In this document: positions 51,233 to 57,167 of the stretch, piece by piece
How the letters are laid out: every line of letters begins with the position of its first letter
Position numbering within the stretch: position 1 is the first letter of the stretch
NCBI RefSeq assembly: GCF_009914755.1
Contig: NC_060948.1
Direction: 5' to 3' (one strand)
From: the human T2T-CHM13v2.0 reference genome, Homo sapiens
DNA: 64,000 nt
Made by a program: the position numbers and the translations under genes
The notes under the pieces: model-generated
What the model was told of the DNA's origin: nothing
Database searches by the model: none
What the model saw: only the letters and a program-made list of their open reading frames with translations

Positions 51233-54200
51233 GATTCAAGTACATTCTAAAGAATAGATGGCAGTGAGGAAATAATCATTATAAATACATAAAACAATCT
51301 GATATACAATTGGTGATCTGCAAGGAAATGTGGGGAAAAGGCAGTAGCATTTACTTCTGAATGGTTGTACAATTTTTAGAGCTTTATAAACTCAGTTTCT
51401 GAATTTTCTGCAATGATTATTACTGTTATTATCAATAAAAATGAGAAAACAAAAATACATGTGTATGCACTCATGCATGAATGCACCCTACATCTTCTAG
51501 AGTTTCTTGGTACTTAATTACAGTAAAACTATAATCTACCACAAAATGACAGCAGCATGCTTTATTGAGCTGCAGTCATGCATGTGGCCTGTTTATTCTT
51601 TTTTTTTATCAACCTATACTTCTTGTTTGGCTTTCTGTACTATAGGTATTTGATATTATAAATATTAATATTATAGATATTTGCAGGTTACATATTTCCA
51701 GTTACCTAGCCACAGATATCAGTGGTGGTATGTGCACTAACTACTACACTCATTTGGGACATAAATTTACATAACAGAAAGGCTCTTGTTTTTGTAATTT
51801 AAATGCACAGGGTTATTTTATTCTATGGGAGCAAGCAGAATTGAATTTAAACTGGCATTTTTCTCTATAGACCTGGGAGTATATTTTTTTTTTGAGATGG
51901 AGTTTGCTCGAATTTTACCTAGGAATGCACTATTTTATTATTTTATAGTGAATAATATCTGTGATAAGCATGCATTACATTACTACTTTCTGAGTCATGA
52001 ATACTACCAAGTAAATATCTCAAATTTATAAATTTTAATGCAATTTTTATTTCTGAATTGATCTTGTGTTTTTTTGATAGAATATACCTAAAAGGCTTAA
52101 AGTGCATATAACTGAGCAGTTTTCTTTTATGTAATGATGCAAAGTATATGAATAGTATGTAATCTGATTCAGCAAAGAGACAAGAGTTTATAGCCAAAAG
52201 ATTTGTGCTTTGAAGTTTGGAAATAGCTCTTATTATGAATTTTTGATCTTGGGTGGGCTATTAACTATGAGTCCTGGTGTCCTCATCCATAAAATGGTAT
52301 TAACAGCACCTGCCTTTTTTGCTTTTCAGGTTTAGAGACTTGAAAAATAAATAATAATACATGGAAGTTGTCTAACACCTTCTGTACCCAGCTTGACCAC
52401 ATACTCAGGTTTTTGGTAATTAGCACAATTAAAGTGAACCAAGGGGGAACAAGTTGCTGATTTAATTTGGGGTTACATTGTCTTCACCCTGTGTCATAGG
52501 CTAATTTAGTCCATGCATTCCTTAAGTATGCATGTCTATTTAAGAGATTAGCTGAGAGTGGCTGATATTCAATGTCAGTTTATCTCAGCTGTGGGAAAAC
52601 AATCCCTGTGTGTACCCTATCTGTGCTTGTGAGTCCACAGTGGGATTTTGTGTACAGAACAGCATGTTTATATTTACAAGATTGAAAATGTAGGTGAAGT
52701 TCATAAGCATCGGAAATAATTCTTTCTTCGTGAAAGCTGTCCTGCTCTTCTGGCATTCTTCTTTGTAACATTGAGTTTCACATATACTTTCCTTGTTACA
52801 TTGCAAACTCCATGGGGTCAAAGTGTGTGTTAGTTTTGCATACTACTGAGTCTGTTGTGTCCATTACAGTGCTTGACACACAGCAGATGCTCAGTAATTA
52901 TAATCGAAATTATCCACATACACACATATAAATATATATATATAAAATATATAAAAACAATTGACTGACAGACTCATTAATTCCCACTACCCACCTCCTA
53001 GTTCCTAGCATAGTGTCAGGTACTTATTAGGTGAACAATAGATAGTGACCATGTCTTCTTTATATTATTTAGCCTGAATTTCCAGCAATAAATCCCTGGA
53101 CAAAGTCTGTTGTTTATAGTACTATACCATAGATACAGGATATGTTTCCAGCAATAAATCCATGAACACAGTATGTATCTTATACAATCAAACCATGTGC
53201 CCAAGGTGACTCTTCAGCAGTAAATCAGTGTACACTACCTGAATCTCATAACCTTATCCTGTGGACACAAGCTGAGTCTCCAACAGTAAATCCATGCACA
53301 GAGACTGTAACTTCCACAGTCACACCATGGGCCAAGGAAGTATCTCCAGCAGTAATTCCATGGACACAGCCTACACCTTCTGTAATCGTACCTTGGACCC
53401 AGGTTGAATGTCCATCAGTAAATACCTGGAGAACATCCATAGCCGATACCATCACACTATGGAAAGGGGCAGAATTAACCTCAGGATATCCATGGATACT
53501 GCCTTGGGTTGCTACTGTCACACTATGGGCACAGTCTGAATCTCCAGCAGTAAATCTTTGGACACAGTCCATGTATGACAGAGACACACCATGGCCTCAA
53601 GCTGAATCTCCAGCAGTAGTTTACTGGACAGAACCTGTAGCTGATACACACAAACTGTGGACTCAGTTTGAATTTTTAACAGTAAAGTCTTGGATCCAAT
53701 CCATATCTGATACACTCATACCATAGACCTAGGCTAAGTCTTCAGCACTAAAGCATTTTACACAGGCAATAGCTTATACAATCAAATTGTGGAACCAAGT
53801 CAAATCACCTGCCATAAATATCTGGAAAGAATATGAAACCAATATGTTCACACAGTGGACTGAGGTTGAATCTCCAAAAGTAAATGAGGGGACACATCCC
53901 ACATCTACTACAGTTATGCTACTGAACCAAGTTAAATCTGTAGGAGTAAATCCCTCCGCAAAGCTTGAGACAGAAATTCTCATACTGTGGACCCAGGCTC
54001 ACACTAAAATCAACAATCCCTGCACATACACTCTACTTGATAGAGTGACATCATTGGCTAAGGATGTTTGTGTAGCAGTACATCCACGGAGGTAGTCTAA
54101 AACTGAAATAGTCACATCATAGGCCCAGGATCTGTTGCCAGCAATAAATCCCTTAACAGTGGCTGTACCTGGTAGAGTCACACTGCAGTACATGGCTGTA

Positions 54201-54584
54201 TCTCTAGTAATAATTGCCAGGAGAGAGGATCTAACTGATACAGTCATAATATAGACACAGATAAAATTACCAGTGATCAGTTTCTGGTTACAACCTCTGC
54301 CTGGCACAGTCAAACTGTGGACCCAAACAAAATATCCATCAGTATCACTTGGAACCAGGCTGAATTTCCAGCAGGAAATCCCATGATACAATCTAAGCCT
54401 CCACTTGTAAAGATATGAACAGAGTCTGAATCTCCAGCCCCAAGTCCTCTGTTACAGGCGGAAACGGATATAGCCATACCATGGACCCAGACTGAATCTT
54501 TGGCAGTAAATCCCTGGACAAAGCCTGCTGCTGATACACTCACACTGTGTACACAGCCTGTAACTCCATCATTAATCTTCTTTT

Positions 54585-54883
54585 TTTTTTTTTTTTTTTT
54601 GCGAGACGGAGTCTTGCTCTGTCGCCCAGGCTGGAGTGCAGTGGCATGATCTCGGCTCACTGCAAGCTCTGCCTCCCAGGTTCACGCCATTCTCCTGCCT
54701 CAGCCTGCCGAGTAGCTGGGACTACAGGCGCCCGCCACCACACCTGGCTAATTTTTTCTATTTTTAGTAGAGACGGGGTTTCACCGAGTTAGCTAGGATG
54801 GTCTCGATCTCCTGACCTCGTGATCCGCCCGCCTTGGCCTCCCAAAGTGCTGGGATTACAGGCATGAGCCACTGTGCCCGGCC
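54585..54883 (-). mobile_element. AluY inserted in the repeat exon
   Basis: AluY motif GCAAGCTC...TTCACGCCATTCTCC; TSD CATTAATCTTCTTTT at 54570-54584 and 54884-54898. Confidence 0.93.
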
Positions 54884-55328
54884 CATTAATCTTCTTTTCA
54901 CAAACTTTTCATGCTACACTGAAAGCATGGTTTCAAACTGAATGTCTACCAGTAAATACCTGGACAGAGGCTGCTGCTTCCAAACTTATACCCTGGATCT
55001 AGGCTGAATTTCCAGCAATAAATCCTTGGACAGAGACTTTTGCTCATACAGTAACAATTTTGGCACAGGCTGTATCTTCAACAGTGAAGACCTGGCCACA
55101 ATCTTCATTTAATACAACCAGATTATGGTCCCAATCTGAATCTGCAGCATTAATTACATAGATACAGCCTGCATCTGACACATGCATAGGACTGATCCAA
55201 ATTGAATCTTCACTAGTAAATACCTGGATACTGCCTATATCTAATACATTAGCACAGTGGACCCAGCCTGTATCTCTAGCAGTCAATCTGTGAATAGAAG
55301 CAATAGCTTCCATAGTCACACCTTGGAC

Positions 55329-56439
55329 TGTTGTGGGAAGTCAGGGACCCCTAACAGAGGGACAGGCTGAAGCCACGGCAGAAAAACATAAATTGTGAAG
55401 ATTTCATGGACATTTATTAGATCCCCAAATTAATACTTTTATAATTTCTTACACCTGTCTTTACTGCAATCTCTGAACATAAATTGTGAAGATTTCATGG
55501 ACACTTATCACTTCCCCAGTCAATACCCTTGTGATTTCCTAAGCCTATCTTTACTTTAATCTCTTAATCCCATCATTTTCTTAAACTGAGGAAGATGTAT
55601 ATCGCCTCAGGACCCTGTGATGTTTGTGTTAACTGCACAAATTATTTGTAGAGCATGCGTGTTTGAACAATATGAAATCTGGGCACCTTGAAAAAAGAAC
55701 AGGAAAACAGCAATTTTCAGGGAAGAAGAGAGATAACCTTAAACTCTGACCACTGGTGAGTCAGGCAGAACAGAGCCATATTTCTCTTCTTTGAAAAGCA
55801 AATGGGAGAAATATCGCTGAATTCTTTTTCTCAGCAAGGAACATCCCTGAGAAAGAGAACGTGTACCTGACGATAGGACTCTAAAATGGCCCCTTTCGGT
55901 GTGGTCGTCTTCTATGGTCCAGCCGTAGGGAGGAAATAAGCCCCAGACTCCCATAGCGCTCCCAGGCTTATTAGGACAAGGAAATTCTCACCTAATAAAT
56001 TTTTGGTCAGACTGCTTGTCTGCTCTCAAACACGGTCTCCTGATAAGATGTTATCAATGACATTGCAGGCCCAAAGCTTCATTAGCAATTTTAATATCAC
56101 CCCAGTCCTGTGGTCCTGTGATCTTGTCCTGCCTCTATTTGCCTTGTGATATTCTATTACATTGTAAAGTATGTGATCTCTGTGACCCACACCATATTCC
56201 TACACTCCCTCTCCTTTGAAAATCACTAATAAAAACTTGCTGGTTTTACGGCTCGGGGGGCATCACGGAACCTACCGACATGTGATGTCTCCCCCGGATG
56301 CCCAGCTTTAAAATTTCTCTCTTTTGTACTATTTCCCTTTATTTCTCAAACCAGCCAATGCTTAGGGAAAATAGATAAGAACCTACGTGAAATATTGGGG
56401 GTGAATTTTGCCTGATATCTGGCTGAATTTCCTCTGATA
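55329..56439 (+). mobile_element. solo MER11 LTR (HERV-K11/HML-8; MER11B-like)
   Basis: Starts TGTTGTGGGAAGTCAGGGACCCC; duplicated AACATAAATTGTGAAGATTTCATGGACA block; 6-bp TSD TTGGAC. Confidence 0.93.
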
Positions 56440-57167
56440 TTGGACCAAAGCTTTGCTTCTAGGAACAAAACACTGGACACATCTTGTATCTGATATACTA
56501 GCACTGTGGACCCAGGTCGATTCTTCTGCAGTCATTCCCTCCACAGGCAGTATGTGACACAATTATACTGTGACTGCATGCTGCAGTCTCCAGTAGGAAT
56601 TACTTGGACACAGACTGTATCTGATCTTTTTATATTGTGGAACCATGATGAATCCTCAGCAGAACATCCAGGGGCATGGACTGTAGTTTCCACAATGTTA
56701 CCATGTACCCAGTTACCCCTTCAGCAGGAAAAACCTGGACACTACCTGTGTCAGAATCAATTACTCCACGGACCCAGTCTAGGTCTCCAGTAATGAAAAC
56801 ATGGACAGAGGCTGCAGCTTCCACACTCTTGAAGTGGACTCATGATGATTTTCCAGATGCAAATTCTTATACAGAGACTGAAAGGGGCACATGTTGGACA
56901 ATGCGTAAAACTGAAGCTAAGAAACTCTGGAAAATGCCTGAAGCTAAAATATTTAGAGTTTCATTACCAACTCAACCTCATACTCACGACCTGTGATTCA
57001 TGAAGAAAATCAAGCACCTATTTTATGGACACATCATGAAATTGAAAATATCAATGAACGGACATTGTCTGAATTTGAAACACTTATATCCTGGATAGTG
57101 CCTGTGCTGCAAGCAGCAGAACAATGGCCCCAGCCTGAAGCTCTGCTTAGCAGACTTTCATTTAAAA

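What the first reader, a model, noticed from the sequence alone, without database searches (positions are those of the whole stretch)
53097..56880. Strict 33-bp periodicity: a Trp every 11 residues, alternating two half-units
Seen: e.g. WTQAESPTVNP CTETVTSTVTP WAKEVSPAVIP WTQPTPSVIVP WTQVECPSVNT. There is no net indel from 53097 to 53790, and 53166-53723 is a 186-codon stop-free frame missed by the ORF track. Many stops fall exactly on Trp codons (TGG to TAG/TGA), and the register resumes across both insertions; about 35 22-aa units in total. Divergent units with fixed length imply past protein-level selection. The fold could be a solenoid with a Trp ladder or an O-glycosylated stalk (inference).
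Basis: partly seen in the sequence, partly recalled or inferred. Interest (0 to 1): 0.72.

Follow-up and report, generated by a model that had tools for sequence, protein, structure and literature searches.

The report
Dead PRSSLY sperm-gene copy on Y
The tryptophan-every-11-residues pattern is the broken giant exon of an unannotated copy of PRSSLY, a Y-linked testis gene still intact in many other mammals; the human Y carries at least 14 dead copies, and the repeat likely formed a long stalk on a sperm-surface protein.

Summary
The 33/66-bp periodicity is real. It is the decayed giant exon of a PRSSLY pseudogene. The 186-codon frame matches sheep PRSSLY (E 3e-46), and five downstream exon remnants at 57172-61751 match its last trypsin-like domain (59-87% identity). 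Intact eutherian PRSSLY proteins carry the same W-T-Q-x-E 11-mer; marsupial, monotreme and lizard orthologues do not. This copy is dead: stops, frameshifts, an Alu, a solo LTR and two deletions (3.9 and 5.0 kb). Human PRSSLY pseudogenes are published (Hughes 2022), but their human model is another copy (chrY 10.24 Mb). I found 14 copies of the 3' half on chrY, diverging neutrally (dN/dS about 1.0) and mostly beside RBMY sequences. The last two exons also recur in 43 consecutive 20.3-kb units of the TSPY array. AlphaFold gives no fold for the repeat. Verdict: a known pseudogene family; the repeat, the copy map and the TSPY link were not found in the papers searched.

The parts
53073..57171 (+). 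Remnant of the PRSSLY giant exon: about 35 66-bp (22-aa) units of two alternating Trp-led 11-mers, then the start of the less regular part (sheep residues 462-514); split by two insertions
53166..53723 (+). Longest surviving stop-free stretch (186 codons, one Met at codon 136); a relic, not a predicted gene
53072..53073 (.). Deletion junction: 3854 bp missing relative to the chrY 26.91 Mb paralogue, including one exon of the N-terminal trypsin-like domain and about 13 repeat units
54585..54883 (-). Alu insertion (name recalled from the sequence), 15-bp target-site duplication at 54570-54584 and 54884-54898; absent from the paralogues that span the site
55329..56439 (+).
57171..57172 (.). Deletion junction: about 4960 bp missing relative to the 26.91 Mb paralogue; removes sheep residues about 515-1490 (rest of the giant exon and trypsin-like domain 2)
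57172..57406 (+). 3' part of the linker exon (sheep 1491-1567), frameshifted
58803..58937 (+). Exon with the His motif (LTAAHC) of trypsin-like domain 3; AG/GT intact; 2-bp deletion and a stop; Pfam Trypsin E 3.8e-7
59302..59548 (+). Exon with the Asp motif (NDLAL); 87% and 71% identical to sheep; 1-bp deletion
60811..60942 (+). Penultimate exon; 2-bp deletion shared with the 26.91 Mb paralogue
61481..61751 (+). Last coding exon to the stop codon; encodes a hydrophobic C-terminal tail; two 1-bp deletions

Best explanation
This is the broken giant exon of an unannotated PRSSLY pseudogene copy on the human Y, and in the intact mammalian protein the Trp 11-mer array likely acts as a long, extended, probably O-glycosylated stalk on a predicted GPI-anchored sperm-surface pseudo-protease. 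SHOWN: homology to PRSSLY over the repeat and five 3' exon remnants with GT-AG introns; the same 11-mer in intact eutherian orthologues; stops, frameshifts, two insertions and two deletions in this copy; 14 copies of the 3' half on chrY with pairwise dN/dS of 1.0. INFERRED history: a 33-bp unit expanded into 66-bp dimers in the eutherian ancestor, under selection for an open frame and Trp spacing but not for most residues. The gene died in the simian lineage (intact in mouse lemur, broken in marmoset, per Hughes 2022). Its remains were then copied passively with neighbouring RBMY and TSPY amplicons. INFERRED protein: signal peptide, trypsin-like domain 1, repeat stalk, trypsin-like domains 2 and 3, hydrophobic tail. 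No domain keeps a conserved His-Asp-Ser triad, so it likely binds rather than cuts. Confidence: 0.96 for the identity, about 0.55 for the stalk role.
For:: 1 hit among 463 candidates, sheep LOC132658999, E 3e-46; shuffled ORF scores at most 39.7 bits against 118. Its start matches the translated sheep PRSSLY record BK059507 in the paper's supplement, and its protease region retrieves a record named PRSSLY at 76%; exons at 59-87% identity. Trp gaps that are multiples of 11 are 57 of 83 (sheep), 75 of 116 (mole), 35 of 61 (horseshoe bat) and 55 of 120 (woodrat), against 0-6 of 17-68 in each of 14 non-eutherian proteins; the commonest 11-mer is W-T-Q-x-E in 5 of 5 eutherians tallied. S+T 21-24%, P 7-9%, Cys 0.5% or less; hydrophobic C-termini; signal-like N-termini in non-eutherian records; repeat pLDDT 33 and about 25, protease domains mostly 60-80; trypsin fold; triads broken. 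The closest paralogue PRSS55 is GPI-anchored (PMC6208766, abstract start).
Against: No codon-position bias between units. The repeat alone matches orthologues at only 23-38%, and repeats match promiscuously, so the identity rests mainly on the 3' exons and on synteny with paralogues. S+T of 21-24% is lower than in classical mucin domains (recalled), and a plain spacer does not explain why Trp spacing is kept. Low pLDDT with 9-20 aligned sequences does not prove disorder. No signal-peptide, GPI or O-glycosylation predictor could be run. Most eutherian database models lack the N-terminus. Mouse knockouts are fertile; one study saw a slight sex-ratio skew, another saw none.
Confidence: 0.93

Rival explanations
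1. Same gene, different role for the repeat: the 22-residue unit folds into a regular solenoid or beta-helix with a stacked Trp ladder, a repeat fold not in Pfam.
For: Strict 11/22 spacing and the W-T-Q-x-E motif are kept across laurasiatherians and rodents; length-changing indels are rare in long runs; no meaningful Pfam family.
Against: AlphaFold pLDDT 33 (window ORF) and about 25 (bat repeat region), with almost no secondary structure; dN/dS 1.07 between units; Pro is common at unit ends; several marsupial, lizard and caecilian orthologues have other repeat periods at this place, as expected of a replaceable spacer.
Confidence: 0.15
2. Same gene, different role: evenly spaced Trp residues act as stickers on a disordered chain, driving self-assembly or multivalent binding in the acrosome or sperm coat.
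For: Trp is 5-7% of the region and evenly spaced, while other positions drift; disorder-like prediction.
Against: No direct test was possible; orthologues outside eutherians lack the Trp spacing. No WxxW C-mannosylation motif in 4 of 4 proteins checked.
Confidence: 0.2
3. The array is a non-coding Y minisatellite or satellite, and the open frame is chance.
For: No codon-position bias; many near copies on Y; no gene annotated here.
Against: Protein match to intact PRSSLY, colinear with spliced protease-like exons; 10 stops in the register frame against 53 and 44 in the other two; stop depletion; no Rfam match.
Confidence: 0.01
4. The 186-codon frame is still translated as a short functional protein, or the copies were amplified as working genes.
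For: Human PRSSLY pseudogenes are transcribed at low level. Columns shared by both clades of human copies read open for the first 763 codons of the repeat block, and no exon indel is shared by all copies, so the first duplications came close to the time of gene death.
Against: Only one Met, at codon 136; 5' exon and acceptor deleted; pairwise dN/dS in four protease exons is 1.03, 1.01 and 1.02 within and between clades (between-clade 95% CI 0.79-1.34), against 0.001-0.31 published for intact genes.
Confidence: 0.04

Closest known systems
PRSSLY (DYNG in dog), Hughes et al. 2022, PMC9178871
   Same: Same gene: giant exon followed by spliced trypsin-like exons, Y-linked, pseudogenised in human; giant exon with Ka/Ks near 1.
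   Different: The paper's human model starts at chrY:10,244,192 on the minus strand, a paralogue 88% identical over the repeat. The start of its chimpanzee model matches the human 22.32 Mb copy instead. The paper says the giant ORF has no identifiable domains; 'tandem', 'tryptophan', 'mucin' and 'catalytic' occur 0 times in its main text. It speaks of human 'loci'; I saw no copy number in the parts read.
PRSS55 and the testis S1 protease/pseudo-protease family
   Same: Trypsin fold, testis expression; PRSS55 is GPI-anchored on sperm.
   Different: PRSSLY has three trypsin-like domains, none with a conserved triad, and a stalk of 1000-2000 residues.
Mucin-type PTS stalks (MUC16, zonadhesin; recalled)
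   Same: One giant exon of degenerate S/T/P-rich tandem repeats, fast-evolving, lineage-specific units.
   Different: Lower S+T (21-24%) and a strictly spaced Trp, which is unusual for mucin domains (recalled).
TSPY (DYZ5) and RBMY composite repeats of the T2T Y
   Same: The 20.3-kb unit size and Yp position match; a SET/NAP1-type exon lies about 5 kb after the remnant in the one unit checked.
   Different: 'PRSS' occurs 0 times in the main text of the T2T-Y preprint and of a 2026 multicopy-gene preprint. The remnant may be among the T2T 'fam-*' subunits; those supplements are closed.

Membership tests
PRSSLY (gene family) | C-terminal trypsin-like exons orthologous to PRSSLY rather than to other PRSS genes | tested here: met
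   59-87% to sheep P0001; P0001 is 76% identical to a record named PRSSLY; weaker graded hits to marsupial, monotreme and lizard homologues
PRSSLY (gene family) | Giant single exon upstream of the protease exons | tested here: met
   Continuous repeat exon colinear with paralogues that keep the full order; truncated at both ends here
PRSSLY (gene family) | Y linkage, no X copy | tested here: met
   47 of 47 protein matches in the genome lie on the chrY contig (stricter first look, so a floor)
PRSSLY (functional gene) | Intact reading frame through the protease domains | tested here: not met
   Stops, frameshifts, domain 2 deleted
PRSSLY (functional gene) | Testis-specific expression of this copy | not testable with these tools
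   No RNA data; the paper's 0.17 TPM is for its own model copy
Active S1 serine protease | His-Asp-Ser catalytic triad | tested here: not met
   Domain 2 lacks all three in 13 of 13 orthologues shown with the motifs; domain 3 keeps His and Asp in therians but has no conserved Ser motif; domain 1 lacks His and Ser motifs in the records that have it
Mucin-type stalk | S/T/P-rich, Cys-poor tandem repeats | tested here: inconclusive
   S+T 0.21-0.24, P 0.07-0.09, C 0.005 or less
Mucin-type stalk | Dense O-glycosylation | not testable with these tools
   No predictor or glycoproteomics available
Solenoid repeat protein | Confident regular fold of successive units | tested here: not met
   pLDDT 33 and about 25; shallow alignments, so not excluded
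Satellite or transposon | Match to a known repeat consensus | not testable with these tools
   No Dfam/Repbase here. Of 43 genome matches to 53000-54570, 42 are on chrY; the one X match covers only the 73 bp before the array
GPI-anchored protein | N-terminal signal peptide and C-terminal hydrophobic GPI signal | tested here: inconclusive
   Seen by eye in orthologue ends; no predictor run

The most novel reading that the evidence does not exclude
The eutherian PRSSLY giant exon encodes a new kind of structured Trp-ladder or Trp-sticker repeat on sperm. Its dead primate copy sat in an ancestral RBMY-PRSSLY-TSPY cluster that seeded the human Y amplicons, leaving its last two exons in every TSPY array unit. 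I put the cluster part at about 0.7 and the new-structure part at about 0.2; the probability given is for both together.
Probability: 0.15. Interest if true: 0.65.

Novelty: new member of a known kind. Interest (0 to 1): 0.36.

Why it matters
The locus is a dead gene, so it has no direct functional importance. Three by-products are useful. First, the PRSSLY giant exon, published as having no identifiable domain, has a definable eutherian-specific 11/22-residue Trp repeat that can be expressed and tested. Second, broken triads suggest PRSSLY binds rather than cleaves, which changes how its proposed effect on sex ratio should be studied. Third, neutrally decaying PRSSLY copies mark how RBMY and TSPY amplicons spread on the primate Y and can help date those events; they also fill a gap in the T2T-Y annotation.

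Tried and rejected
Pfam on three window frames: nothing above cut-off. Rfam 52000-62500: 0. Phage tblastn: no match. Codon-position bias as proof of coding: absent. Search of the paper's supplement 9 for two window motifs gave 0 but is uninformative, because sequence runs are cut to about 400 letters. Genome search with Pfam NAP did not list TSPY exons, so one array unit was read directly; Pfam did not match that exon, PDB SET/NAP1 chains did (best E 5e-5). ESM Atlas on the sheep repeat: best score 0.75, below lead level. A simple majority of the repeat block was misleading because near-identical pairs tie. Branch-by-branch dN/dS was not computed, so brief selection on an internal branch is not excluded. 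Holmlund 2022 was not held. Rows left out: about 4 units that span indels (31 used); three near-identical 22.8-25.3 Mb copies and the 8.65 Mb fragment from the tree; duplicate partners from the dN/dS groups.
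Full report
1. Observation. The periodicity is real and strong. Lags 66, 132, 33 and 99 lead the autocorrelation in each repeat segment; 0.55 at lag 66 compares with at most 0.31 in 1000 shuffles. A 66-bp profile places units from 53097 to about 57120 and scores nothing above 6.4 elsewhere in the window. The frame is unbroken for 418 codons from 53097, with Trp or a stop at 25 of 38 eleventh positions. The Alu (15-bp duplication) and the LTR (6-bp duplication) interrupt the array exactly in register.

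2. Identity. The 186-codon frame retrieves one protein among 463 candidates: sheep LOC132658999, 1823 aa, with two trypsin domains, E 3e-46. Its beginning matches the translated sheep PRSSLY record in Hughes et al. 2022, and its protease half retrieves 21 proteins including records named PRSSLY. On the window it maps to the repeat, then jumps from residue 514 to 1491 at 57163-57173, then to exons at 58803-58937, 59302-59548, 60811-60942 and 61481-61751 with AG/GT ends and 59-87% identity.

3. State of this copy. Against its closest paralogue (chrY 26.91 Mb, about 91% identical) it lacks 3854 bp at 53072/3 and about 4960 bp at 57171/2, with at most 1 bp of microhomology, and it alone has the Alu and LTR at these sites. 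Each 3' exon carries a frameshift. No 5' exon was found upstream in the window.

4. Selection. For it, the register frame holds 10 stops in 682 codons, against 53 and 44 in 651 codons for the other two frames, and against 27.9 +/- 5.0 under a neutral model (0 of 3000 simulations gave 10 or fewer; column-shuffle P=0.043). Most unit divergence thus arose while stops were being purged. This fits the published Ka/Ks near 1 for the giant ORF.

5. The repeat in living genes. Trp spacing in multiples of 11 is clear in 6 of 7 eutherian proteins (weak in the Peromyscus record, 10 of 37) and absent in 14 of 14 non-eutherian hits, several of which have other periods. The commonest 11-mer is W-T-Q-x-E in all five species tallied. 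AlphaFold gives pLDDT 33 for the window frame (9 sequences) and about 25 for the bat repeat region, but models two trypsin-like domains. Domain 2 lacks His, Asp and Ser; domain 3 keeps His and Asp without a conserved Ser motif; an N-terminal domain 1 also lacks the motifs. I infer a surface-anchored pseudo-protease on a long stalk. Glycosylation, anchor and binding role are untested.

6. Copies on the human Y. All 47 protein matches lie on chrY. The 3' block has 14 copies including this one, the repeat 11, and there is one more fragment at 8.65 Mb. A tree of 11 copies gives two groups with support 100: this copy with the 26.91 and 7.94 Mb copies, and the rest; identity is 83-86% between the groups. 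Pairwise dN/dS over four exons is 1.03, 1.01 and 1.02, so amplification was passive. Columns shared by both groups read open for the first 763 codons of the repeat block, after which group-specific indels shift the frame, so the first duplications came near the time of gene death. Hughes' table lists frameshifted, heterogeneous transcripts in marmoset and an intact gene in mouse lemur, which places the loss in early simians (inference). An RBMY-type motif lies 13.6-17.4 kb downstream on the same strand in 6 of 6 copies of this group, and 27-45 kb upstream on the opposite strand in 6 of 8 others. The last two exons recur at 43 consecutive positions 20.3 kb apart from 8.98 to 9.83 Mb (40 of 60 candidates scored, 3 more). 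One unit was read: it holds sheep residues 1688-1818 and, about 5 kb on, a SET/NAP1-type exon. Unit size and place match the published TSPY array. The labels b1-b4, IR3, Alu, MER11 and the recognition of that exon as TSPY are recalled.

7. What is in print. Hughes 2022 (PMC9178871): I read main-text parts 1-3 of 5, supplement 2 part 1 of 2, supplement 3 part 1 of 3, and term searches of all nine supplements, where sequences are cut and figures are not held. It reports transcribed human PRSSLY pseudogene loci. Its human model is the 10.24 Mb copy. I saw passages only of the T2T-Y preprint, PMC3924835, bioRxiv 2024.04.02.587783, PMC12154609 and PMC7617377, and the abstract start of PMC6208766. 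Searches for PRSSLY alone and with pseudogene/copies, TSPY, repeat or GPI, and for DYNG, showed no description of the Trp repeat, the copy number or the TSPY link in listings or passages. Subscription papers, figures and bioRxiv supplements were not visible and may contain them.

8. Verdict. An ordinary outcome at its core: a new, unannotated copy of a known pseudogene. The repeat definition, the broken triads and the RBMY/TSPY hitchhiking add modest interest. Interest 0.36.

Noticed in passing
G000:C24:8979022-9831604 (L036, L037): The last two PRSSLY exons are present in 43 consecutive 20.3-kb units of the TSPY array, about 5 kb upstream of the SET/NAP1-type exon on the same strand in the unit read.
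   Followed up: partly
G000:C24:22319534: The first 23 bases of the paper's chimpanzee PRSSLY model match the human 22.32 Mb copy exactly, not the copy used as its human model, so the published ape models may not be orthologous copies.
   Followed up: partly
L037:180-980 (minus) and 292-939 (plus): A second, degenerate stretch resembling the TSPY first exon lies about 1.2 kb before the intact one within the array unit.
   Followed up: no
window 47834-64000: The whole 16-kb stretch aligns at about 90% to the 26.91 Mb copy, so the duplicated unit is larger than the gene and runs towards RBMY2MP.
   Followed up: partly
P0009, P0011, P0016, P0018, P0020: Dunnart, devil, gecko and caecilian orthologues have other repeat periods (10/30, 15/25/40, 9/18, 12/24), suggesting repeated independent stalk expansions.
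   Followed up: no
window 18104-18627: An AT-rich 22-bp minisatellite of 23 copies (Tandem Repeats Finder score 755); unrelated to the finding.
   Followed up: no
L012, L020-L021: Paralogues at 6.17 and 22.32 Mb carry their own large insertions (about 2 kb and 6 kb) inside the giant exon.
   Followed up: no
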